DNA of 64,000 bases from Schmidtea polychroa. Lineage: Eukaryota. The stretch's first letter is position 1. Every line of letters begins with the position of its first letter. Under the pieces are notes generated by a model that searched no databases, was not told the DNA's origin, and worked only from the letters and a program-made list of their open reading frames with translations. The stretch covers positions 26,040,001 to 26,104,000 of the forward strand of contig CM097885.1 of the NCBI GenBank assembly GCA_044892525.1. Reading direction: 5' to 3'. A program made the position numbers and the translations under genes. Of this stretch, positions 1 to 61,605 are shown piece after piece.

Positions 1-492
1 TTGAAAAAATATTTTGTATATCAAGGTAATAAAACTTGGATAAATGTTTTGCCAAAAATTATTTTCAGTTACAATCATTCACCACACAGAGGATTAAAAG
101 GACAAACACCTGCAGATTTTACTAAAAATCAAACAAAGTCAGAAAAAATCAATAAACCGAAATACAAGGTTGGTGATCATGTAAGAATTAGTAAAATCAA
201 TTCTTCACCATTCATCAAAAACTTTGATAATAATTGGAGTGATGAAGTATATCAAATTTTTAAAATCGATACAAAACAGAATCCTGTCATGTATGTGATA
301 GTTGATCATGAAAACAAACCAATCACTGGTAAATTCTATGAACAAGAACTCCAAGTAATTCCTGCTCCTACAATATTTAGAATTCAAAAGATTTTAAAAA
401 CCAAAAAAGATGGTAAATATAAACAATACTATGTTAAATGGCATGGATATGAAACTCCATCTTGGATATCTGAAAATCAATTGATTAAATAA
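1..492 (+). CDS. Retroviral-like integrase, C-terminal part with chromodomain (5' truncated by the window)
   Basis: YNHSPHRGL..TPA, KYKVGDHVRISK, NWSDEVYQI and GKFYEQELQ motifs of Polinton integrases, followed by the chromodomain-like KILKTK..YYVKWHGY..PSWI. Confidence 0.93.
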   Translation: MKKYFVYQGNKTWINVLPKIIFSYNHSPHRGLKGQTPADFTKNQTKSEKINKPKYKVGDHVRISKINSSPFIKNFDNNWSDEVYQIFKIDTKQNPVMYVIVDHENKPITGKFYEQELQVIPAPTIFRIQKILKTKKDGKYKQYYVKWHGYETPSWISENQLIK

Positions 493-497
493 ATATT

Positions 498-1523
498 ATG
501 AAAGATTTTTATATTATTTTACCTTCTAATAGTTGTCCTCTTATTTTCCCCGATAATGAAGCTAGTAAATTTAATGTCGAATTTCAAAATCCTATTTACT
601 TGGATGGTGAATGGGAAGTAGCTCTCATGGACTTTACCTTTGTGTATAATACTTTTCCTTATTACAGTAATTCATTGATACAATATGAAAAAGTAAAGAT
701 GGATGAAGAAATTAAATATTTTAGAATAAATAATTCAAATCGAACCTTTGAAGTAATAAATCCTAAAAATACTCCTGAAGTTGACATGTTCATTGAAAGA
801 TATGAGAATTTGGTTGTTGTTTGTCCACATGTTCCATTTAAAATAACGTTTCCAGATTTTGAACATGCTATTAAATTTGGATTAAAATCAGTATCGGTTA
901 TTAGTGATAGTGATCATTTGCGAATTAAATTACCAAAATTTACAGAAGATAAAACAATTGATCAATTTGGTATAATTATAAGTGTTGTTGAAAAAACAAA
1001 ATTTGAACATTATTTCGAAGATGAACTATACATCAATACTTTATCTGAAATACATGGTCAGTTAATGACAATTAATCCGTCTCCCTTTAAAGATTTAAAA
1101 ATACAAAATAATGAATTGGTTAAAATAAGTCTTGCTGATAACATTTCATCAATAACCTTTGATAAAAATTTAACAAAAACATTGGGATTAAAGAAACAAA
1201 CATTTACAGAGAAAGAAATTATTGGAACAAAAATTCCAAAGTTATTTAATCATCATCAACAAATGTTTATTTACTCAAATATTATCGAACCATTGACTGT
1301 TGGAGATGTATGAGTTCCGTTATTGAAATCTATTTGGATAAAAAAATATGAACAAGGAGAAATTGTGCAACTAGAAATGAAGAATCCAATGTATCTACCA
1401 ATTTCTAATTCTTCTATAAACAACATTGAAATCAATATACGAGATGATAGTGGAAAATTAATAAAATTTAGTAGAGATACAAAAACACACTTGACATTAC
1501 ATTTTCGTAAAATAAATGATTAA
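498..1523 (+). pseudogene. Minor capsid protein (penton) copy 1, interrupted by an in-frame TGA at 1311-1313
   Basis: FYIILPSNS..FPDN..F.V....I.LDGEWEVAL N-terminus and IEINIRDDSG..LTLHFR C-terminus. The frame continues directly after the TGA (VPLLKSIW), matching paralogue LVPLLKCIW. Confidence 0.88.
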
Positions 1524-2532
1524 AAAAGATTTTTATGTGAATTTACCTTCTAATAGTTGTCCTCAGACTCATCCAAATAATGAAGCTGGTAAATTTAATG
1601 TCGAATTTCAAAATCCTATTTACTTGGATGGTGAATGGGAAGTAGCTCTCATGGACTTTACCTTTGTGTATAATTATTTTCCTTTTTACAGTAATTCAAA
1701 TGTCAAATATAGTAAAAGTGTATTACATACAAGTTATGAATACTTTTACTTTAACCAAGAAAAAAATGAATATACAATCAGTCACGACTCTCCATTTTAT
1801 TTAATATATATTGATGGAAATACATTGAACATTAATTGTAAATATTTTCCTTTTAAAGTAGAATTCGATAGTATTAAAGAAGCGCAGAAATTGGGATTTT
1901 CAGAAAAAGAAATAACTTTTAAAAAAGCCTTGAACCAAATCACTATTCCTCCAAATAATCGAAAAATAAAGTTTGATACAATTCGACTAACTATACAATA
2001 TTATTACGATGTCGAGTATACAGATACATTCGAAGAAAATATCATTACAGATCTTTCACAAATAAATGATCAACTATCACTCTTTTATCCTCGTCCATTT
2101 AAATCTGTTGATATTCAAAAAGGAAAAATCGTTAAAATTGTAATGGATGATGATGTCAGTAAAGTTCAATTTAGTAAATTTTTAGCCAATAGTTTAGGAT
2201 TATTAGAAGAAGCATATACTGACAAACTTATTATTGGTTTTAAAGAACCTGAAGTATTACAACGCAATCAACAATTGATGATCTATACAAATATTATCGA
2301 ACCTATTATTGTTGGTGATACATTGGTCCCTCTTTTGAAATGTATTTGGGTGGAAAAACATAAAAAAGATGATTTAGTACAAATAATTGAAAAGAATCCA
2401 ATGTACTTACCTGTATCGTCTTCATATATAAACAATATAGAAATCAATATACGAGATGATAGTGGAAAATATATATTTGGAAAAGAAGATAAAACATACT
2501 TGACATTACATTTTCGTAAAATAAATGAGTAA
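1516..2532 (+). CDS. Minor capsid protein (penton) copy 2, intact
   Basis: Same terminal motifs as copy 1; uninterrupted 338-aa ORF whose ATG overlaps the copy 1 stop. Confidence 0.88.
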   Translation: MIKKDFYVNLPSNSCPQTHPNNEAGKFNVEFQNPIYLDGEWEVALMDFTFVYNYFPFYSNSNVKYSKSVLHTSYEYFYFNQEKNEYTISHDSPFYLIYIDGNTLNINCKYFPFKVEFDSIKEAQKLGFSEKEITFKKALNQITIPPNNRKIKFDTIRLTIQYYYDVEYTDTFEENIITDLSQINDQLSLFYPRPFKSVDIQKGKIVKIVMDDDVSKVQFSKFLANSLGLLEEAYTDKLIIGFKEPEVLQRNQQLMIYTNIIEPIIVGDTLVPLLKCIWVEKHKKDDLVQIIEKNPMYLPVSSSYINNIEINIRDDSGKYIFGKEDKTYLTLHFRKINE

Positions 2533-2923
2533 TCCTGACATAATACATTTTTATAGTAGTAACCAATCGGGTGGTGATTTACCATATTTTGTTGGTAAAC
2601 AATATGGAACCGGTTGGTTGAAGACAATAGGTAGATTTGCACTCCCAATTCTTAGACGAATAGGAAATTTTGGTATGAAAACAGCTAATGACGTAATAAA
2701 TAACAATGCAAATATCTTGCCTGCTTTAAAATCAAATGCAATTTCTGAAATTAAAGAATCATTACCAGCTGTGATGCAACATTTACCTGAAGTAATTAAT
2801 AAAGTATCCGATGTATTTAAAAATGATAAAGAACAAAAAGGCGGAATACTTAAACGCCGAAAAATTATGAAGAAACATATAAACAAAAGAATGAAAGGAT
2901 ATGGTACCATCTTTGAAAAATGA
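2525..2923 (+). CDS. Small conserved Polinton virion protein (pVI-like, putatively membrane-active)
   Basis: QSGG..LPYF.G.QYG.GW...IGRFALPILRRIG amphipathic motif, basic C-terminus, and position between penton and major capsid genes. Confidence 0.7.
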   Translation: MSNPDIIHFYSSNQSGGDLPYFVGKQYGTGWLKTIGRFALPILRRIGNFGMKTANDVINNNANILPALKSNAISEIKESLPAVMQHLPEVINKVSDVFKNDKEQKGGILKRRKIMKKHINKRMKGYGTIFEK

Positions 2924-4143
2924 TTAGTGCTAAATCAGAATTATGTCTTTTTGATAGACCTTCTCCCCAAGCAGTGATTGAACATGGAGCATTTGAAGAT
3001 GTATACCCAAGAAATTCTATTACAGATGCTGGTTCTTCTTCGATTCAATTTTACATAAATGGATCGCAGACTGAATATTTAGATTTGAATGATACTTTGT
3101 TATATATTCAATTGAAAGTTGTTAATAATTTAGGTGAGAATTTAGGCGAATCAGAAGTAATTCCAAATAATTTCTTCTTCCAAACCCTTTTTAAAGATGT
3201 TGAATTAATTTTTAATTCAATCAAAGTTGAAGGATCAAATGATAGATTTGCCCACAAAGCATTAATTGAAACACTTATAAATTATGACGGAGATACTAAA
3301 CGAACATCTTTAGGTGGAATGGGGTATACTAACAAAGATCTTACGAGAAAAACATGGATTGAAAAATCAAAATCCTTTTCTTTATGTTCCCCACTTCAAT
3401 TTGATTTCTTTGATCAACCTAAATATTTACTACCAGGTGTTAGTGTTCAAATTAAATTAACAAGATCAAATCCAACACTTAGTTTAACTTGTGCGAAAAT
3501 TGAACCGAAAATTTTATTATTAGACGCAAAATTAATGGTTAGAAGAGTTCGTGTTGAACCATCGGTTTTGGCAGGACATCAAATTGGTCTGTCTACCAAA
3601 AATGCAATTTATCCTTTAAGAAGCAAAGAAGTTGTTGATTTCTCATTACCTATTGGTTCTTCCTCTTTTTATAAAGAACAAATATTTGGAGATAGACGAT
3701 TACCTAATTTTATACTTGTTGCATTTCAATCTAGTAAAAGATTTAGTGGATCGTTTTCAGAATCATTTTCTTTATTTGATCACTTTAATGTCAAGTCCAT
3801 AACTTTAAGTAAAGGAAGTGATTATCGCGAAAAATATAGTCAAGATTTTGAGAATGATGATTATAGTACAAGTTATATGCAATCGATTATTAGAAATATG
3901 GGTTATCTAAATAAAAATATGAATTGTGGTATCACCATGTCTGATTTTAAGAGCAAGTATCCATTCTTTACATTCGTATTGGCACCAGATTTTGATCTTC
4001 ATCAAAGTCAGTTACCACAAAGTGGAAATTTGCGATTAGATATTAAATTCGCATCTTCACTTACTGAAGCTGTTTCTGTAATCGTATATGGAGTTTTTGA
4101 AAAAGAAATTCAAATTACATCTACTCGTACTGTTTTGGTATAA
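2920..4143 (+). CDS. Double jelly-roll major capsid protein (hexon/PY)
   Basis: KSELCLF..P..Q..I....F..VYP...I....IQF.I.G...EYLDL..T.LY N-terminus and G.LRLDIKF..L...V..IVYG C-terminus typical of Polinton MCP; 407 aa. Confidence 0.93.
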   Translation: MISAKSELCLFDRPSPQAVIEHGAFEDVYPRNSITDAGSSSIQFYINGSQTEYLDLNDTLLYIQLKVVNNLGENLGESEVIPNNFFFQTLFKDVELIFNSIKVEGSNDRFAHKALIETLINYDGDTKRTSLGGMGYTNKDLTRKTWIEKSKSFSLCSPLQFDFFDQPKYLLPGVSVQIKLTRSNPTLSLTCAKIEPKILLLDAKLMVRRVRVEPSVLAGHQIGLSTKNAIYPLRSKEVVDFSLPIGSSSFYKEQIFGDRRLPNFILVAFQSSKRFSGSFSESFSLFDHFNVKSITLSKGSDYREKYSQDFENDDYSTSYMQSIIRNMGYLNKNMNCGITMSDFKSKYPFFTFVLAPDFDLHQSQLPQSGNLRLDIKFASSLTEAVSVIVYGVFEKEIQITSTRTVLV

Positions 4144-4177
4144 TATAAACCAAATATCGAAAATCAATTAATCAAAT

Positions 4178-4556
4178 ATGAAGTAAGAATTAATTTAAAT
4201 TATTTAATTATTATTAATTTAGTTCTATTCAGATACATGTTATCGGAAGAAAATTACTAGGAAAAGAATTTCTAGGTGTTTTCCCATTAGACAAAATACC
4301 TTATTTAGATGTCAACAAAGCAATAATTGTAAATACTCAATCTGCTAATCTGAATGGTGAACATTGGCTTGCAGTATACGTGAAACCAGACAAAATATAT
4401 GCATTTGATCCAATGGGATTCTATTATCCACCTATATTAATCAATAAACTACAATCAATGTCAATGCCGATTGAATACAATCGAATACGTTACCAAAACC
4501 CTATAACAAAAACATGTGGACAACATTGTTTGGCTTGGTTAAAGTCAATGAAATAA
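4178..4556 (+). CDS. Adenain-like cysteine protease; two exons (4178-4182, 4223-4556), 40-nt intron 4183-4222; 112 aa
   Basis: The spliced product MNSIQIHVIGRKLLGKEFLGVFPLDKIP...NTQSANLNGEHWLAV...YAFDPMG...YQNPITKTCGQHCLAWL has the adenain H/D/Q/C catalytic residues. Unspliced, the frame has an upstream TAA and no N-terminal ATG. The intron is GTAAG...TTTAG. Confidence 0.9.
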
Positions 4557-4970
4557 ATTTTTATAATAAAAAGTTGTTTTCAATAAATTTTAGCTGATTA
4601 TTTCAATAAATTTTTAGTTGATTATTAATTCAATATAATTGATTATTAAAATTTAAATTTTAGTTGATTATTAAACTAAATCTTTAATTAAGTTAATTAT
4701 TATGTAAGGTATTAAATCCTTTAATTATTATGCAAGTTATTTAATCCTTTAATTATTATGTAAGTTATTTAATCTTTTAATTATTACGCATGGTATCAAA
4801 TTTAATCCTTTAATTATTACGTAATGTATTAAGTAGAAGAAGAAGTATATAAATGATTTGTTTTTAAAATTTGCTCATAATTTGCTAGTACCAAGGATTG
4901 TAAGAATTTTATTTTTTAATTATTAAAATTTAATTATTTTTTAGATAAAAAAGATTGAAACTAAAAAACT

Positions 4971-5117
4971 ATGAAAATGAACAAAAATTCTGAAATGAAT
5001 GAAACTATGAACAAAAATTCTGAAATGAATGAAACTATGAACAAAAATGTCAAATGTAAGTATTTTTATCAATTTTTTTATAAAATTTTATAAGATGAAA
5101 TTACTAATATTTTTTAA
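4971..5117 (+). CDS. Putative small spliced Polinton gene (about 35 aa, 30-nt internal repeat)
   Basis: TATATAAA at 4846, candidate 5'UTR intron 4900-4944 (GTAAG...TTAG), ATG 4971 and donor GTAAGT at 5056. An acceptor at 5094 gives MKMNKNSEMNETMNKNSEMNETMNKNVKYEITNIF. The 3' exon assignment is uncertain. Confidence 0.4.
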
Positions 5118-5229
5118 TGATTATTAATGATATTTTTATATAATTTTTTAATAAAATTTTATTTGATCTTAAGAGGAAATTCACTCATTTTTTATAATCT
5201 AATATTTTACTAATATTTTAAATAAAATT

Positions 5230-5640
5230 TTATAATGAAATAAGGGTAAATCCCTCGTAAAAATTTTTTTTTATATAATGATGAAATTATTAACATTTTT
5301 AAATAATATTTTATAATGAAATTATTATTAATGTTATTTTTTAATGATATTTATTTTGAAATAAGGGGAAATCCCTCGTAAAATTTTTTTATAATGATGA
5401 AATTATTAACATTTTTAAATAATATTTTATAATGAAATTATTATTAATGATATTTATTTTGAAATAAGGGGAAATCCCTCGCAAATTTTTTTTATAATGA
5501 TAATAATGTAGTCTACAGTGAGCACGTAGCTACATAATAGTCTGCAGTGAGCATGCAGTACTCTTTAATATAATAATGTAGTCTACAGTGAGCACGTAGC
5601 TACATAATAGTCTGCAGTGAGCATGCAGTACTCTTTAATA
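5230..5640. repeat. Polinton intergenic repeats: 3x GAAATAAGGG(G/T)AAATCCCTCG units and a perfect 70-bp tandem duplication (5501-5570, 5571-5640)
   Basis: Direct comparison of the copies. Confidence 0.9.
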
Positions 5641-5714
5641 ATAATCTGACCCTTATTAAATACTTATTAACTTTAAAATTTTTTTCAACAACATTTAAAA
5701 TAACACTTAAATAT

Positions 5715-6147
5715 TTATTCAAAAACATTTGTAATTTTCCAAATTGGTTTAATTATAACTCCATTTATCTTGACTCCTTGAATAAGTATTCGCACTTTTG
5801 ATTTTTTATCTTCGTCTAATTTACACCCTTTTTCACAATTGATAAATGTAAATTTTTCATTAAAAATCATTTCTTTATTAATTAATTTAAGAATTTCTCC
5901 AAGATTTTTTCTATCTTCTTCCCCAATATCTCCAATTTGAATATTGAATTGACATGTTTTTAAATTAACTGGTTCCTATAACAAATTAATATTAAATAAT
6001 TAAATAAAAAATTACCTTGAACGAATAAGTAATAGGATATTTCAAATAGTACATATTATATTGAAGGAATTGAATAGGAGGTTTACATACCATACCTATA
6101 ACTGATGTACTATTTTCTTCTAATAGGATACTATTTATAGTAGACAT
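5715..6147 (-). CDS. Uncharacterised Polinton protein, 130 aa; two exons (6147-6016, 5975-5715), 40-nt intron 6015-5976; possibly an OB-fold ssDNA-binding protein
   Basis: ATG at 6147, a 132-nt exon, a GTAATT...TATAG intron, then a 261-nt exon ending in TAA, open throughout. The C-terminus KVRILIQGVKINGVIIKPIWKITNV is beta-rich. Confidence 0.8.
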
Positions 6148-6202
6148 TTTTTGTTAAATTTATTTCATTAAATTATCATTTATAGCAAATAATTAATTTT
6201 GA

Positions 6203-9200
6203 TTGGATGCATACATGCAAAATTATAAGAAAATTTTAATAGTATTATTTTTATCAAATGTTTTAGCCAAATTTTTAAATGTATATATTTTAGGTATACT
6301 TTATCCAAATTATTGTTCGTCGAAAGAACATAATAATTGCCATTCTATAATGGAGAATTATTATTCTAAAAAATACTATAATAAAACTTTTTTTATATGC
6401 CCCATATGTAAGATTAGCGAGCCCTTAACATATAGCGTTTTTTATAATAAGCATAAACAACATTTAGATAGGTTCAATTCTAAAAAAGATGTTATTTTTA
6501 AACGTCCTTCAACTATTGAAATAAATACTACTAATAAAAAAATTAAATTAAATACATTTGTTGAATCCCAGGTCGGATTAGTTGATGAATCCAATGATGG
6601 ATTGCCTTTTGCTGAATCCAATGTTGGATTGTCTTTTGCTGAATCCAATGATGGATTGTCTTTTGCTGAATCCGATGATGGATTGTCTTTTGCTGAATCC
6701 AATGATGGATTGCCTTTTGTTGAATCCCAGGTCGGATTAGTTGATGAATCCTATAATGAATTTGATAATCTTTCACTCGACTCTTGGGATGTAGGCGAAC
6801 CCAATAATGAATTTGATAATCTTTCACTCGACTCTTGGGATGTAGGCGAACCCAATAATGAATTTGATAATCTTTCGCTCGACTCTTGGGATGTAGGCGA
6901 ACCCAATAATGAATTTGATAATCTTTCACTCGACTCTTCGACTACTAATGTACAAATAGGAGGTAATGTACCCATAGTACAAAAAGATTTAAGGGGTACA
7001 CATCAAATTTTAAGTCTAAATACAAGTAACTTGAATATAAAGGAAATAATATTTCCAGAACAATTAATTATAAAATTACGAGATATTATTAACGAATTAG
7101 GCTCCGTCAAAATTCAATTCGGAATAACAATCGAATTTGAAAAAGACGGGGAAATAAAGGTTAATAATATTTCGAATTACGCAAAACCTTTAACTGCCTC
7201 ATTTTTTGACGAAGGCATTAGAGAACTAAACGAGAAAATAAGTAATATCACAGAGTTAGGAAGTAGCTGGATCATAAAAAAAATAACTGAAATTCACTTC
7301 ACCATAACAAAGATAAGTAGGCTAAGTAGATTAAGTGGTAGGAGTTTCATTGAACTACCTACTTGTCTAAAAAATAAAAAATGCTTAATTAATGTAAAAA
7401 ACACCGACGATTCGTGTTTTTTATATAGCATTTTAGCTATTTTAAAATATGATGAAGTTATTAAACAATATAGAAATAGAACATCCAGTTATAATTTATC
7501 TGAGTTAATATATAATCCATTAGACTTACCAATGAAATTAAAAGATATTAGAAAATTCGAGGCCAAAAATCCTGGTTTAATAATTAATGTTTTTTCTTAT
7601 GACAATAACAAACAATTAATAGATAATTACGTTTTAAAACACCCCCATTTAGACATTATACATCGTTCCAAAGTTTTAAATGGAACAGTAATTAATTTAC
7701 TATTATTAAATAAAGGGAACAATTTCCATTACATTGCTATAAGCAATTTAAATAGGTTACTGAATTGCCACATAAACACTAGTTGTCCTACACGCATACA
7801 ATCAATATGGTGTCATCGTTGTTTGAATGGTTTTAAAAATAGAAACGCACTAGAAAAACATGAAATATTATGCAAACGCAATCAATTAGGAACTACTCTT
7901 TATACTTTCCCTCAAAATAAATTCTTACAGTTTACTGACTGGTCGAAAACAGTAACTCCTCCTTTCGTAGTTTATGCCGATTTTGAGGCTATTTTACCTT
8001 GTGATAATGTTCATTTTCAGCGACACATGCCAATATCTGCTGGTCTTTTACTAGTAAATAACTTTGACGGATCTAAATCCTATCAACAGTTTATAGGTTT
8101 AGATTGCGTCGAGAGTTTTTTAAGTGCTATAGAGGATATAGCATTAAATAAGGTTCTTCCTTTTTATTATAAAATGGGTAGGAAACCAATGATTAAATTA
8201 ACTAAAAATGAGCAACAACAATTCATTAATTCAACGGTTTGTTATCTTTGTTTGAAATCTATCGTGGATCCTGTTAGAGATCACGATCATTTTACGGGCA
8301 AATACTTGGGTGCAGCTTGTAGCACATGTAACGTAAATAGAAAAATAAATAAAATTTTGCCTATCGTATTTCACAACTTGAAGGGATACGATATGCATCA
8401 TATACTTAAATATGGATTAAATAAATTTAAAAATTGGAATTTAGGGTGCATCCCAATAACTACGGAAAAATTTATATCTTTGATTGCTCATTTAGGCAAA
8501 ATTAGCATAAGATTCATTGATTCATATCAATTTGTCAATGATTCTTTGGCTAAAGCAGTCAAAACTTTGAATTCTTTGCCTTTTACTAATTCTGCTTTTT
8601 CTGGCACCATAGTAGGTGAAAAAGGAATCTTCCCTTATAATTTCGCCACTTCTTTAGATGTTCTACAAACTACGTATGAATTACCACCAATCTGGGAGGG
8701 TGTCACTGAGCTTGAGTATGAAAAAGCTCAGGAGATTTGGGTAGAATCTAATTGCAGAACTTTATTAGATTATATGATGATCTACCTAAAACTTGATTGT
8801 TTTCTTTTGGCTGATTTCTTTCATCAGTTTAGGTTGAAATCAATTGCTCACAATAGATTAGAACCTTTGAATTATTTCGGAATTCCAGGCATGTCTTGGT
8901 CTTCTGCATTAATGTCTTTAAATGAACCAATTGAACTCATAACTGAAAACGAAATGTTTAGCTTTTATGAGGGTGGAATAAGAGGCGGTCTTACTTTTGT
9001 GAATAAGCATTACGTAAAAACCGACGAGAACACCGAGTTACTTTATATAGATATTAATAATCTTTATGGGTGGGCTTTAAGTCAATCATTACCTTGTGGC
9101 GAATTTTGTTGGGTTCTTGATGGATTTGATGGAAATACTGGATGAATGTAGGAATTTAAATCTTGAATCTTTGTCTTATGGATACACACTTGAAGTTGAT

Positions 9201-10463
9201 CTTGTAATTCCTTCTGAGCTTCATGATAAGTTGGATGATTTCCCTGTAGCTGCTGAAAAAATGAAACCTGCTGGGTCTAAGGTTGAAAAATTATTATTAA
9301 CTCATCTTCCAAAATCTAATTATGTTATTCATTGGAGATTATTAAAATTATATTTAGAACTTGGTGTTAAAGTAACACGTGTAAATAGAGGTGTAAGATT
9401 TAAGCAATCACCAATTTTTAAAAAATATATAGATACAAATACCGAATTAAGATCAAAAAGCGTAAATAACTTAGATAAAAATTATTATAAATTGCTAAAT
9501 AACAGTTTATACGGCAAAACAGTTGAAAATTTAAAGAGAAGAATGAATCTTCGTCTTTGTACAACTGCCGGTAAATTAGTTAAATATTCGTCAAAACCGA
9601 CTTTTAAAAAATCTATTAAAATAGCTGATAATTTAATTGCAACACTTTTGAATTCAGATTCTATATGTTTAGATAGACCGAGTTACATTGGTCAATCTGT
9701 ACTTGATCTATCTAAACTTAGAATGTATGAATTGCAATATAAGGATCTGGAATCATTTCGCAATGAGTTTAATTGTAAAATTAATATCGTTGCTGGTGAT
9801 ACAGATTCTTTTTTCCTCGAAGTCATTAACTGCAAACTTGAGGTTCTTTTACCTGCAATGATTCGAGATAATTTATTAGATACTTCCAATTACAATAGTT
9901 GTCATTCCTTATATAGTAAGAACCTTGATTCAGTCATTGGAAAGTTCAAAGACGAGAATAAAGGTCTTAAATATAAGGAGTGGGTTTTTCTTAGACCTAA
10001 ATGTTATAGCTTGTTGGGTGATGAGGAAACAAAAAAGGCTAAAGGTGTAACATTGAAAGGTAGTGACATAAAACATCAGTCATACCTAGATTGTTATAAC
10101 ACTAACCAGATTTTTTCGGTTCCTCAGACTAAAATAACAAGCAAAAATCATCAAATTTTTACAATTAAAAACACAAAAATAGCACTAACAAACAAAGATG
10201 ACAAAAGGGTTTGGGTGGGGAAAAATGCTAGTCTTGCATATGGGCATGTAAGATTAAGTGAATTAAATATTGGAGAAAATGTTGGAGAAATTGTTGCAGA
10301 AAATGTTTCAGAAAATGATGGAGAAGATGTTTCAGAAAATGATGGAGAAAATGATGGAGAAGATGAGGAAGAATTAAATGAAGATTTTGGAGAAGATGAG
10401 GAAGAATTTAATGAAGAAGATGACATCGATATCGATGACGTTATTTTGTCCGATGAGGACTAA
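6203..10463 (+). CDS. polB: Protein-primed family B DNA polymerase (pPolB), split by a +1 frameshift near 9113-9145
   Basis: ExoI VVYADFEAIL; endonuclease VII-like CYLC..VRDHDHFTGKYLGAACSTCN; FHNLKGYD; FIDSYQF; KGIFPY; motif A YIDINNLYGWALSQ.LP in ORF1. ORF2 has motif B YKLLNNSLYGKT, motif C GDTDS, RPKCY and KAKGV. Confidence 0.95.
6581..6940 (+). repeat. In-frame coding tandem repeats in the pPolB N-terminus: 27-nt (ESNDGLSFA) x5 and 51-nt (NNEFDNLSLDSWDVGEP) x3+
   Basis: Visible directly in the DNA and the translation. Confidence 0.95.
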
Positions 10464-10529
10464 TTTTATTGAATAAATTTTATATCTTTACATTTGTTAA
10501 TTGTTTGTGTTTTATGTGTCTAGTTCATT

Positions 10530-10548
10530 TTTATGTATTTGGTCGATA

Positions 10549-10625
<77 letters not shown>

Positions 10626-10626
10626 T
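10530..10626. repeat. (ATT)n microsatellite
   Basis: Long ATT run after the polB stop. Confidence 0.95.
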
Positions 10627-10654
10627 TTCGTTAAAATTTTCATTTGACTTTGAA

Positions 10655-12111
10655 AAATATTTCATAAAAATTTTCATTAAAAGTTATCTTAAAAATTTCC
10701 ATCTAAAATTACCTAAAAAAAATATTTCATAAAAATTTCCATTAAAAATTACTTAAAAAAATATTTCATAAAAATTTCCATTAAAAATTACTTAAAAAAA
10801 TATTTCATAAAAATTTCCATTAAAAAATTTCAATTCTCAAACACCTTCAACTTTTTGTTAATAAATTTTAAAATCTTACTTTAATTTACTTATTACATTA
10901 CTTTAATTTACTTATTTAAAAATTATTACTTTAATTTACTTATTTAAAAATTATTACTTATTTAAAATTTTTTACCATTGATTACTTAATTTTAAATTTA
11001 GACCTTAATTAACTTTAATTTAATTTTTTAGAACCTTAATTTACTTTAATTTAATTTTTAGAACCATTATTTACTGTAATTGAAAAATTTGAGCCATAAT
11101 TAACTTTAATTTAATTTTTAGAACCATTATTTACTTTAATTGAAAAATCTGGACCATAATTTACTGTAATTTAATATTTTAGAACCATAATTTACTTTAA
11201 TTTAATTTTTAGAACCATTATTTACTTTAATTGAAAAATTTGGACCATAATTTACTGTAATTTAATATTTTAGAACCATAATTTACTTTAATTTAATTTT
11301 TAGAACCATAATTACCTTATTTGAAAAATTTGAGCCATAATTAACTTTAATTTAATTTTTAGAACCATTATTTACTTTAATTGAAAAATTTGAACCGTAA
11401 TTTACTTTAATTGAAAAATTTACCACGTTTTTTAGTGTAGACCACCTATTTCTCAGGACCAAGGAGACTCACCTCACTATAGCGTGATAAATCCTTGGCT
11501 TTTTTATTGATAGTAGGATTTTTGTATAGAAAAAAATTTTTCGTATTGAAAATCCCAGGACCAAGGAGACTCACCTCACTATAGTCTGAAAAATCCTTGG
11601 CTTTTTTAGTGGTAGTCGGATTTTTGTATTGAAAAAAAATTTTTGTATTGAAAATCCCAGGACCATCGAGACCCCCTCACTATAGTGTGAATAATCCTTG
11701 GCTTTTTTAGTGGTAGTCGGATTTTTGTATTGAAAAAAATTTTTTGTATTGAAAATCCCAGGACCATCGAGACCCCCTCACTATAGTGTGAATAATCCTT
11801 GGCTTTTTTAGTGGTAGTCGGATTTTTGTATAGAAAAAATTTTTTGTATTGAAAATCCCAGGACCATCGAGACCCCCTCACTATAGTGTGAATAATCCTT
11901 GACTTTTTTATTGATAGTCGGATTTTTGTATAGAAATTCCCAGGACCATCAAGACCCTCTCACTATAGTGTGATAAAAAAAAATTTGGACCAAAAATCCC
12001 TGAAAGCAAAAAATGAGTTGGGAACAATTGCGTAATAAAAATTTGGGAACAAACCCCCCCCCCCCCCGGGGGGGGGGGGTAATTGTTCCCGTAGGCCACT
12101 ATCTACCTACT
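10655..12111. repeat. Polinton right terminal/subterminal region (probable TIR): 39-bp AT repeats, degenerate AT repeats, about 101-bp tandem units (11453-11975) and a C14G12 hairpin
   Basis: Units start at about 11453, 11555, 11657, 11758, 11858 and 11939. The same motifs occur in inverted form next to the second terminus at 62634. The inner boundary is estimated. Confidence 0.75.
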
Positions 12112-50875: not shown

Positions 50876-59942
<9,067 letters not shown>

Positions 59943-60426: not shown

Positions 60427-61446
60427 TGTTATTGTTGAGGATACTTAAATAATAATTTACAAATAAATAAATAAAATTACCTAGAGGAAGGTCGTCATAA
60501 CAAACGGGACGATCTAGGGGAAATCAGAAAAGAAAACGGAAGCAAAAAGAAATGAGAAATGAGATGGGGGAGGAAACAAAAGAAATTAAACAAGAAAATA
60601 AAAACCAAAGTCAGTATTAATTAATTAGTACAAAAAGGAAAAGGAATTTCGAAAGTGGAAAAATAGAAAAACAACAATACTCTTATCTCGACAGCTTGTC
60701 AGTGATAACAGAATTGCTGAGAGAAGGCGGTTAAACAAAAAAGGGAAAATAGCTTGACAGCCGTCAGAGAAAAAAACACTTGATTATCTTTAGTGCCACA
60801 ATATAAGCAAGCTTTAAAAAGAGAAACTATAAGAGACAAAAGAAAACAAAATTAGAGACAAAGAGTGACGCGAAATTGAGACGAAACATGACAGAAAAAT
60901 TGAGACAAAAAGTGAAGCGAAATTAAGACAATTTGGGACGAATGTGACAATTGTGAGACGATTTGAGAGACAAACGTGGGAGAAAATTATTGGGAAAATT
61001 TAGACAACGTTGGACGAAACGTTGTTGGATAAACGATTTGTGAAAAATAATTGTAAAGAAAACGATTGTGGAGAATAATTATTGAAGAAGAGTTGAAGAA
61101 AAGAATTAGTTGAAAAATAAAACGAAAAGAAGTTATTTGAGTATTTGAGTAAATTTGTGAAGAAGATCAAAGAAAACAACGAGCTCAAAGTCCCAGTTGA
61201 TAAACCAATCAGTAATTAGTGATCTTTTAACCCGTGTTATACGCAAGTGCTATTCCTCACCGAGTGTTGTAATAAGCATTGTATAGTCACCAAGCAGAGT
61301 GTTGTATTGATTGTCAGTGTAAAGAGAAAGTTTATTTGTGATTATCAATAAAGATTTCTATTGTCAAGTGTTATTTGTGGATCGTATAAAGACTCGTTTG
61401 GAGTCATAGTAAGATTTAAATTTATCACCAACTCTATAACCCAACA
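60427..61446 (-). repeat. About 1-kb solo-LTR-like repeat, copy 2 (inverted relative to copy 1)
   Basis: TGTTATTG...CCCAACA termini; no TSD found. Confidence 0.7.
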
Positions 61447-61605
61447 TTATTAAAAAAATCAATAAATTATATTATAAGATAAATACAAACTCACCTATGT
61501 GCTAAAAATGCATTAGCAGTTACACCTGCTAATTTATTTTAGAATTCCAGAAAGGGTAGAACAATTATTGACTTTACCTTTCTTGAGTCAGTTGATCATT
61601 ATACT

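What the first reader, a model, noticed from the sequence alone, without database searches (positions are those of the whole stretch)
498..2532. Tandem penton paralogues with identical ends and a strongly diverged middle
Seen: the two minor-capsid genes share an 86-bp perfectly identical block (565-650 vs 1589-1674) and identical 29-30-bp blocks near the 3' end. The roughly 200-aa middle is barely alignable. Both end in ...TTTCGTAAAATAAATGA, so each stop overlaps the next ATG. Inference: the jelly-roll scaffold is homogenised by gene conversion or recent recombination while the insert diversifies, as expected for a receptor-binding or immune-exposed spike. Two alternative vertex proteins could give tropism switching.
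Basis: partly seen in the sequence, partly recalled or inferred. Interest (0 to 1): 0.7.

Follow-up and report, generated by a model that had tools for sequence, protein, structure and literature searches.

The report
Twin penton genes in animal Polinton
A virus-like Polinton element in an animal genome carries two long-diverged copies of its capsid vertex protein gene that have recently swapped short stretches of DNA; duplicated vertex genes are already reported in this virus group, and a switch of target cell is not shown.

Summary
The pair is real. Both genes are Polinton/adintovirus pentons: a single jelly roll with a nested domain inserted in the D-E loop. The 86-bp identity is exact. Contigs of another study break exactly at its ends, so it is no assembly artefact. 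The duplication is old: a relative carries both types (P0004, P0003), and two further independent pairs exist. Recent gene conversion is well supported, but only in short tracts: 46 of 47 identical codons in residues 1-62 against 52 of 86 in residues 53-303. The other pairs show no such tract. The variable middle is alignable (29%) and is a family-wide trait, not a sign of rapid diversification. Copy 1 has a premature stop at 1311-1313, absent from the other runs that cover it. A sister element has one penton only. Each gene's TATAAAC box lies inside the upstream gene's 3' end, so a duplicate arrives with its own promoter. Duplicate pentons and nested inserts are already in print (PMC11071296). 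Tropism switching is untested.

The parts
1..492 (+). C-terminal part of the integrase-position ORF with a chromodomain-like end (5' end outside the window)
   Evidence: ORF; PF00385 E 2.5e-4, 21.3 bits, below the 25.1 cut-off; identity as integrase inferred from position and PMC11071296 section 16
418..424 (+). TATAAAC box 80 nt before the penton 1 start, inside the upstream ORF
   Evidence: promoter role inferred
498..1523 (+). Penton copy 1 (type A), 341 codons, interrupted by an in-frame stop at 1311-1313 in this window
   Evidence: orthologue P0004 73% identical
565..650 (+). 86-bp tract identical to 1589-1674 (predicted jelly-roll strands C-D); part of a patchy converted zone 518-674
   Evidence: X5 contigs start at 621 and 1645
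666..1238 (+). Insertion domain of copy 1 (approximate limits by alignment to copy 2)
1311..1313 (+). Premature stop in copy 1, not carried by contigs of runs X1, X5, X16
1415..1421 (+). TATAAAC box 101 nt before the penton 2 start, inside copy 1
1428..1458 (+). 31-bp block identical to 2440-2470
   Evidence: an X5 contig ends at 2469
1489..1519 (+). 31-bp block identical to 2498-2528, holding AATAAA (1511) and the next ATG
1516..2532 (+). Penton copy 2 (type B), 338 aa, open
   Evidence: orthologue P0003 70% identical
1589..1674 (+). 86-bp tract identical to 565-650
1684..2259 (+). Insertion domain of copy 2: basal domain with a second beta domain nested in it (about 1729-2010)
   Evidence: models; fold search
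2427..2433 (+). TATAAAC box 98 nt before the small ORF, inside copy 2
2440..2470 (+). 31-bp block identical to 1428-1458
2498..2528 (+). 31-bp block identical to 1489-1519, holding AATAAA (2520) and the next ATG
2525..2923 (+). 132-aa ORF in the PW position between minor and major capsid genes; holds a TATAAAC box at 2878
   Evidence: position as in PMC8097293; no Pfam family at cut-off
2920..4143 (+). Major capsid protein (double jelly roll-like), 407 aa
   Evidence: ESM Atlas features 0.98 to clusters where 24-30% of members carry PF21738; recognition value below threshold; no Pfam or PDB sequence hit
4144..4556 (+). TATAAAC box (4144) and adenain-like protease gene, probably with a short intron after its start at 4178
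   Evidence: PF00770 E 1.4e-5, above cut-off; intron inferred from sequence
6203..10463 (+). Protein-primed DNA polymerase B, split over two overlapping frames (6203-9145, 9096-10463) in this window
   Evidence: PF03175 E 1.3e-8

Best explanation
An endogenous Polinton/adintovirus carries an old tandem duplication of its penton gene. Shown: both products are single jelly-roll vertex proteins with a nested insertion in the D-E loop; types A and B are each kept in a relative; short tracts in residues 1-62, and more weakly 304-338, have been made identical recently in this lineage. Inferred mechanism: each late gene is transcribed from a TATAAAC box embedded in the last 40-100 nt of the gene before it, so a head-to-tail copy of the penton gene brings a promoter for its neighbour and both pentons can be expressed. 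The conserved jelly-roll ends are the only parts similar enough for homologous strand exchange. They therefore take up occasional conversion tracts, and can also mediate collapse to one gene, while the 19-40% identical inserts are too diverged to convert. The result is an accordion locus with two vertex types that share a similar base and differ in their outer domain. The likeliest use is two surface variants on particles (inferred, no receptor known). In this insertion copy 1 is dead.
For: Fold: pLDDT 92.9; Foldseek top hit mavirus penton E 2.6e-8; VIA Z 13.5 PBCV-1 chain (rmsd 3.4, 141 aligned), 12.7 mavirus (6.2, 228), 12.5 Sputnik (5.8, 235), 11.7 fowl adenovirus (5.7, 252). Insert alone: mavirus residues 63-195 Z 6.9 (3.1, 98), adenovirus-derived ADDobody Z 5.7 (3.0, 96). 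Age: A clade support 0.997, B 1.0, A+B 0.998 among 58 proteins; 53 orthologue-type sites against 24 window-shared sites in residues 53-303, and 0 against 10 in residues 26-52. Conversion: identical codons 46 of 47 against 52 of 86, Fisher p 3.6e-7; pS 0.08 and 0.15 at the ends against 0.45-0.60 between; residues 23-52 are 29 of 30 identical in the window pair and 18 of 30 in P0004/P0003; 0 of 79 comparably diverged pairs reach that. Reality: X5 contigs begin at 621 and 1645 and end at 2469, 30 nt inside the blocks, as a 31-letter-word graph would give; one X13 contig (1480-1630, 4 differences) joins a penton end to the copy 2 start; X5 depth is 22-29 on copy 1 and 25 on copy 2. Promoter: all 5 plus-strand TATAAAC in 1-4600 lie 34-101 nt before a gene start; codon resampling put a box before all four tested starts in 0 of 5,000 runs. 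Single-penton sister: X1 and X5 contigs skip from 1469 to 2491.
Against: No RNA or particle evidence. Co-location of P0003/P0004 and of the two other pairs rests on equal contig lengths (3 of 96 lengths doubled; chance estimate 0.0009 for three of 2,200 nt or more; P0026/P0057 clusters share four lengths), not on DNA that I read. The 3' tracts are weak: 15 of 79 comparable pairs are as alike in residues 304-338 at protein level, and promoter and poly(A) constraints could explain them. For the first gene the box arises by codon resampling in 68% of runs, so that box alone says little. No single contig spans both genes in any run. VIA Z of 5-8 for the insert is within the range of common arrangements. 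Direction of conversion is unresolved.
Confidence: 0.72

Rival explanations
1. Selected two-vertex system: conversion is kept by selection so that A and B stay compatible in mixed pentamers or with the same hexon, while the inserts are driven apart to bind different receptors or evade host defence, giving switchable tropism.
For: Both types kept in a relative at 70-73% identity; three independent duplications among 58 proteins; tracts lie in jelly-roll strands; apical dN 1.11 against dS 0.69; surface insert proposed for host recognition in virophages (PMC6048507); two different fibres with different receptors in human adenovirus 52 (PMC4335501, abstract start only).
Against: The other pairs have persisted without homogenised blocks. 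A single-penton sister exists. Residues 251-303 of the jelly roll are unconverted. The apical dN/dS is saturated, alignment-dependent and AT-biased, so it is no proof of positive selection. No switch-like element (inversion, exclusive promoter) was seen; both genes have the same box.
Confidence: 0.15
2. Recent duplication followed by replacement of the middle: one penton was copied recently and its insert was then swapped for a foreign cassette by recombination at the conserved ends.
For: Near-zero synonymous distance at both ends; inserts vary in length and nesting across the family (132-339 residues between the flanking motifs in 189 proteins; PMC11071296 section 16).
Against: Orthologue-type sites remain inside the ends (positions 9, 18, 19, 25, 319, 325, 328) and in jelly-roll residues 251-303; trees of the N block, insert and C part all group A with A and B with B.
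Confidence: 0.06
3. The identity comes from purifying selection on protein and overlapping cis-elements (promoter, start site, poly(A) signal), with no conversion.
For: The 3' blocks sit between TATAAAC and the next ATG and hold AATAAA; the I-N pair under the box is kept in 48 of 51 family members; AT-rich codon bias raises chance identity to 60%.
Against: It cannot explain the 86-bp block: 27 of 27 identical codons where the relative pair differs at 12 of 30 residues, with no box or signal found there.
Confidence: 0.05
4. Assembly artefact: the assembler joined two elements or copied reads between paralogues.
For: High-copy family; no contig spans both genes; the window copy has a stop that other runs lack.
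Against: Contig ends in an independent run fall exactly at the block limits, and a contig from a third study joins a penton end to the copy 2 start; 11 listed runs hold half or more of the words.
Confidence: 0.02

Closest known systems
Adintoviruses with duplicate Pentons (Adinto23690 from coral, Adinto18043 from estuary sediment) and nested DE-loop inserts (Adinto2681); Buck et al. 2024, PMC11071296
   Same: Two penton genes in one genome; insertion in the D-E loop; a second domain nested in the first (section 16 read whole; naming table seen).
   Different: That section reports no conversion tracts, no dating of the duplication and no embedded promoter. I did not compare sequences with those genomes. 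Whether the nested apical domain here has the same fold as the basal one was not tested.
Polinton/Maverick PX minor capsid protein (Krupovic et al. 2014, PMC4028283; Barreat and Katzourakis 2021, PMC8097293)
   Same: Gene order integrase, minor capsid, PW, major capsid, protease; N-terminal and C-terminal motifs like those of PX proteins in the supplement.
   Different: One penton in the described architecture, two here. The polymerase lies on the same strand as the capsid module here, whereas vertebrate Mavericks have the two modules on opposite strands.
Mavirus and Sputnik virophage pentons (PDB 6g41, 3j26; PMC6048507)
   Same: Single jelly roll plus insertion domain between strands D and E; best structural matches.
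   Different: The mavirus insertion is 139 residues; here it is about 195 with an extra nested beta domain; sequence identity about 9-10%.
Adenoviruses with two fibre genes (human adenovirus 52, PMC4335501, abstract start only)
   Same: Works-like analogy only: two paralogous vertex attachment proteins in one genome.
   Different: There the duplicated gene is the fibre and receptors are shown; here it is the penton itself and no receptor is known.

Membership tests
Penton (single jelly-roll minor capsid protein) | Single jelly-roll fold matching solved pentons | tested here: met
   (copy 2 model); copy 1 by homology, 46% identical to P0003 over full length
Penton (single jelly-roll minor capsid protein) | Insertion domain between strands D and E | tested here: met
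   three strands precede the insert in the DSSP list (strand letters assigned by me); insert aligns to mavirus 63-195, Z 6.9, rmsd 3.1, 98 aligned
Penton (single jelly-roll minor capsid protein) | Pentamer at the five-fold vertex | not testable with these tools
   five chains of 338 residues exceed the 1000-residue limit of the complex tool; no job sent
Polinton/Maverick (adintovirus) | Protein-primed DNA polymerase B | tested here: met
   PF03175 E 1.3e-8 on 9096-10460; gene split in this window
Polinton/Maverick (adintovirus) | Retroviral-type integrase with C-terminal chromodomain | tested here: inconclusive
   only the last 163 codons are in the window; chromodomain hit below cut-off
Polinton/Maverick (adintovirus) | Double jelly-roll major capsid protein near the penton | tested here: inconclusive
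   feature match 0.98 to PF21738-bearing clusters but low recognition value; no Pfam or PDB sequence hit; position fits
Polinton/Maverick (adintovirus) | Adenain-like protease | tested here: met
   PF00770 25.3 bits, cut-off 21.3
Polinton/Maverick (adintovirus) | Packaging ATPase, terminal inverted repeats, 6-bp target duplication | not testable with these tools
   left part of the element is outside the window and no genome is held
Adintovirus Alpha or Beta class | PolB class and N-terminal OTU-like domain | not tested
   definition read in 10.1101/697771; no class assignment made
Gene conversion between tandem paralogues | Local loss of synonymous differences with flanks that follow orthology | tested here: met
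   for residues 1-62; weaker for 304-338 (25 of 27 codons, p 0.0017)

The most novel reading that the evidence does not exclude
Animal Polintons repeatedly evolve a two-penton vertex system. The penton gene carries its neighbour's promoter, so tandem copies are expressed at once. Recombination at the jelly-roll ends keeps the two bases compatible and expands or collapses the array, and the two outer domains give particles two binding specificities, which could help these elements move between cell types or hosts.
Probability: 0.18. Interest if true: 0.7.

Novelty: new member of a known kind. Interest (0 to 1): 0.4.

Why it matters
Long retention of two intact penton types in relatives, and repeated independent duplication, argue that Polinton capsid vertices are under selection for particle function. 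That bears on the open question of whether animal Polintons form virions. The pair offers a natural comparison for finding what the penton insert binds. The duplication and the nested insert are already reported. The conversion tract, the single-penton sister and the embedded promoter were not found in my searches, but they are ordinary processes for tandem genes.

Tried and rejected
No genome was held, so a copy census and GENECONV-type test over genomic copies could not be run. Locus searches found no relative: viral contigs with P0002 (6 stretches, 0 confirmed) and with alignment A2 (357, 0); metagenome contigs with A2 (593, 0) and P0006 (174, 0). So I read no DNA of any related pair. Pfam has no family for P0001-P0004. 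Foldseek of the insert against viral models gave nothing at E 0.001 or better. The apical subdomain has only low matches (Z 4.5 or less for residues 16-106 of the insert model), so no receptor or sugar-binding fold can be named. A second look-up of 10 more clusters gave no further equal contig lengths, so pairs are 3 among the 20 clusters looked up. No RNA holder was listed. In run X16 (organism B) the copy 2 insert is covered (321 nt, 9 differences) while the copy 1 insert has almost no cover; no contig joins across, so this is not used as evidence. No complex prediction was sent, since two pentons would tend to pass by likeness to solved pentamers. dN/dS in the apical domain was rejected as evidence of positive selection (saturation, AT bias). 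The test that the apical part is no more diverged than in other pairs (62 of 79 at or above the window value) is partly circular, because pairs were chosen by insert identity. Earlier scan notes by sequence, words and relatives returned nothing. Passages on minor capsid or duplication in PMC4642659, 10.1101/2023.08.22.554363, 10.64898/2026.10.13.758929, PMC9952930, PMC8097293 and 10.1101/697771 showed no penton conversion. Supplement S5.doc of PMC4028283 could not be read, bioRxiv supplements are closed, and files 1 and 2 of PMC11071296 were cut when stored; these may hold more two-penton cases.

Full report
Setting. The window is an AT-rich eukaryotic sequence (GC 21-39%). Positions 1 to about 12,100 are the right-hand part of a Polinton/Maverick. 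In order they hold an integrase-position ORF end with a weak chromodomain hit, two penton-like genes, a 132-aa ORF, a 407-aa major capsid candidate, an adenain-like protease (PF00770 above cut-off) and a split protein-primed polymerase (PF03175). The order integrase, minor capsid, PW, major capsid, protease is that described for vertebrate Mavericks (PMC8097293, passages). No genome was held. An earlier, unchecked scan note calls the host flatworm-like; I did not test that.

The observation. 565-650 and 1589-1674 are identical over 86 bp. Further exact blocks are 23 bp (518-540/1542-1564), 13 bp (662-674/1686-1698) and two of 31 bp (1428-1458/2440-2470, 1489-1519/2498-2528). The middle is colinear and alignable, 55 of 191 residues identical, E 2e-23. 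The true stops are TAA codons at 1521-1523 and 2530-2532, overlapping the next start by 8 nt. Copy 1 has an in-frame stop at 1311-1313 (codon 272 of 341). Three of the four runs laid cover that place, and in them 99-100% of the contig depth lacks the stop, so it belongs to this insertion or its assembly.

Not an artefact. Twenty listed runs from 9 studies hold part of 1-4600, 11 of them half the words or more. I laid 4 of the 24 listed. In X5, contigs begin at 621 and 1645 and one ends at 2469. Each point is 30 nt inside an identical block, which is where a graph of 31-letter words must branch if the blocks are identical in that sample too. An X13 contig (1480-1630, 4 differences) joins a penton end to the start of copy 2. 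X5 depth is similar on both inserts (22-29 and 25). No contig spans both genes. X1 and X5 also hold a sister element, about 80% identical to copy 1, that runs from the penton (to 1469) straight into the copy 2 end and next gene (from 2491): one penton only.

Structure. The copy 2 model (65-sequence alignment, pLDDT 92.9) has three N-terminal strands (5-51) and C-terminal strands (252-335) enclosing an insert of about 195 residues. In the insert, long strands 62-80 and 155-171 carry a nested beta domain. Foldseek ranks the mavirus penton first (E 2.6e-8), then Sputnik and adenovirus penton bases. VIA gives Z 13.5, 12.7, 12.5 and 11.7 for PBCV-1, mavirus, Sputnik and fowl adenovirus chains. The insert folded alone matches an EhV-201 capsid chain (Z 8.2, rmsd 2.7, 94 aligned), mavirus residues 63-195 (Z 6.9, 3.1, 98) and an adenovirus-derived ADDobody (Z 5.7, 3.0, 96). 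These Z values are middling, but pentons fill most of the top rows. In mavirus this domain lies between strands D and E and is described as surface-exposed, sequence-variable and putatively for host recognition (PMC6048507 section 9). Outward projection here is thus inferred by homology, not from a pentamer model.

Age and spread. The search with copy 2 gave 98 proteins among 1,092 candidates; a profile found 14,092 clusters at E 0.001. P0003 is 70% identical to copy 2 and P0004 73% to copy 1, and both have a longest contig of 4,061 nt. In a tree of 58 near-full-length proteins, A (P0001, P0004, P0102) and B (P0002, P0003, P0101) are sister clades (0.997, 1.0, together 0.998). P0013/P0043 and P0026/P0057 fall in two other clades, so there are three independent duplications. 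I left out partial, fused and most distant hits from that tree. Co-location of these pairs is inferred from equal contig lengths: 3 of 96 lengths are doubled (estimated chance 0.0009), and the P0026 and P0057 clusters share 14,413, 16,321, 16,190 and 11,483. Ten more clusters gave no further match. I could not fetch their DNA.

Conversion. Among identical residues (Met and Trp excluded), codons are identical in 46 of 47 cases in residues 1-62 and 25 of 27 in 304-338, against 52 of 86 in 53-303 (Fisher p 3.6e-7 and 0.0017). Synonymous difference is 0.08 and 0.15 at the ends and 0.45-0.60 between. In residues 26-52 there are 0 orthologue-type sites against 10 where the window pair agrees and a relative differs; in 53-303 the count is 53 against 24. 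The window pair is 29 of 30 identical in residues 23-52, the relative pair 18 of 30, and none of 79 family pairs with similar insert identity reaches that (maximum 87%). Orthologue-type sites persist between the blocks, so this is a patchwork of short tracts in an old pair and not a recent duplication. Against a general rule: the other pairs are 57-62% identical in that block, jelly-roll residues 251-303 are unconverted, and 15 of 79 pairs match the window's protein identity in 304-338. Direction is unresolved.

The variable middle. Across 58 family members the commonest residue has frequency 0.55-0.65 in residues 1-60, 0.20-0.38 in 61-240 and 0.46-0.73 beyond. The span between flanking motifs ranges from 132 to 339 residues in 189 proteins. 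Conserved ends with a variable middle is therefore how this whole family evolves. Each insert type is 58-73% identical to its orthologue, so A and B look like two stable types. The apical dN/dS above 1 is saturated and not relied on.

How both genes can be expressed. An earlier scan note reported a TATAAAC box before Polinton late genes in this genome. Tested here: all 5 plus-strand TATAAAC in 1-4600 lie before a gene start, at 80, 101, 98 and 42 nt, and 34 nt before the probable protease start. There are none on the minus strand, and none on the plus strand in 4601-12104. Synonymous resampling gave a box before all four tested starts in 0 of 5,000 runs (per gene 0.68, 0.025, 0.029, 0.051). 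The boxes for penton 2 and the small ORF lie inside the 3' coding end of each penton, followed by the two 31-bp blocks, AATAAA and the next ATG. Inference: a tandem copy of the penton gene carries the promoter for whatever follows, which makes duplication easy. It also gives the 3' identity a second cause besides conversion. No RNA data were available.

Comparison with print. Buck et al. 2024 (PMC11071296, section 16 read whole; supplement search) report adintoviruses with duplicate pentons and with nested D-E loop inserts, from coral, sediment and Tasmanian devil data. Krupovic et al. 2014 (PMC4028283, passages and four supplement PDFs searched) defined PX as the Polinton penton. Passages only were seen for 10.1101/697771, PMC9952930, PMC4642659, PMC8097293, 10.1101/2023.08.22.554363 and 10.64898/2026.10.13.758929 (abstract and passages). 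PMC4335501 was seen as a listing with the start of its abstract. Searches for penton duplication or conversion in Polintons and for the promoter found no report of conversion tracts or of the embedded box; the library lacks most subscription journals.

Verdict. Real and well supported: an old penton duplication, kept in relatives, with recent local gene conversion and a private stop in copy 1. It is a new member of a known kind. The selected two-tropism reading is possible (about 0.15-0.18) but has no direct evidence. Interest 0.4.

Noticed in passing
P0182, P0194, P0245: Proteins of 504-540 aa that look like two pentons fused head to tail in one ORF (N motif, C motif, N motif, C motif); real fusion or read-through not checked.
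   Followed up: partly
window 4178-4556: The protease ORF has no in-frame ATG after its upstream stop. An ATG at 4178 followed by a GT..AG stretch of about 40 nt (4183-4222) suggests a short intron after the start, 34 nt downstream of a TATAAAC box.
   Followed up: partly
window 6203-10463: The polymerase is split over two overlapping frames near 9100-9145, has an endonuclease VII-like hit (PF02945, below cut-off) and tandem 27-bp and 51-bp coding repeats near its start. With the stop in penton 1, this insertion looks defective.
   Followed up: no
runs X1 and X5 laid on window 300-2950: A sister element about 80% identical to copy 1 has a single penton followed directly by the small ORF.
   Followed up: partly
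run X16, organism B, window 1967-2285: A second organism label holds a 321-nt piece of the copy 2 insert with 9 differences; close relative or horizontal transfer not examined.
   Followed up: no
window 10647-11976 and 12098-12104: Arrays of 13, 30 and 101-bp repeats lead to a C/G run and a likely element end near 12104; the matching left end is outside the window.
   Followed up: no
window 51591-52568 and 60430-61455: Long inverted repeat arms (83-93% complementary) about 8-9 kb apart, probably another transposon.
   Followed up: no
P0031, P0035, P0138, P0183: Pentons of 440-457 aa whose profile match overlaps itself in the insert, suggesting an extra insert module.
   Followed up: no
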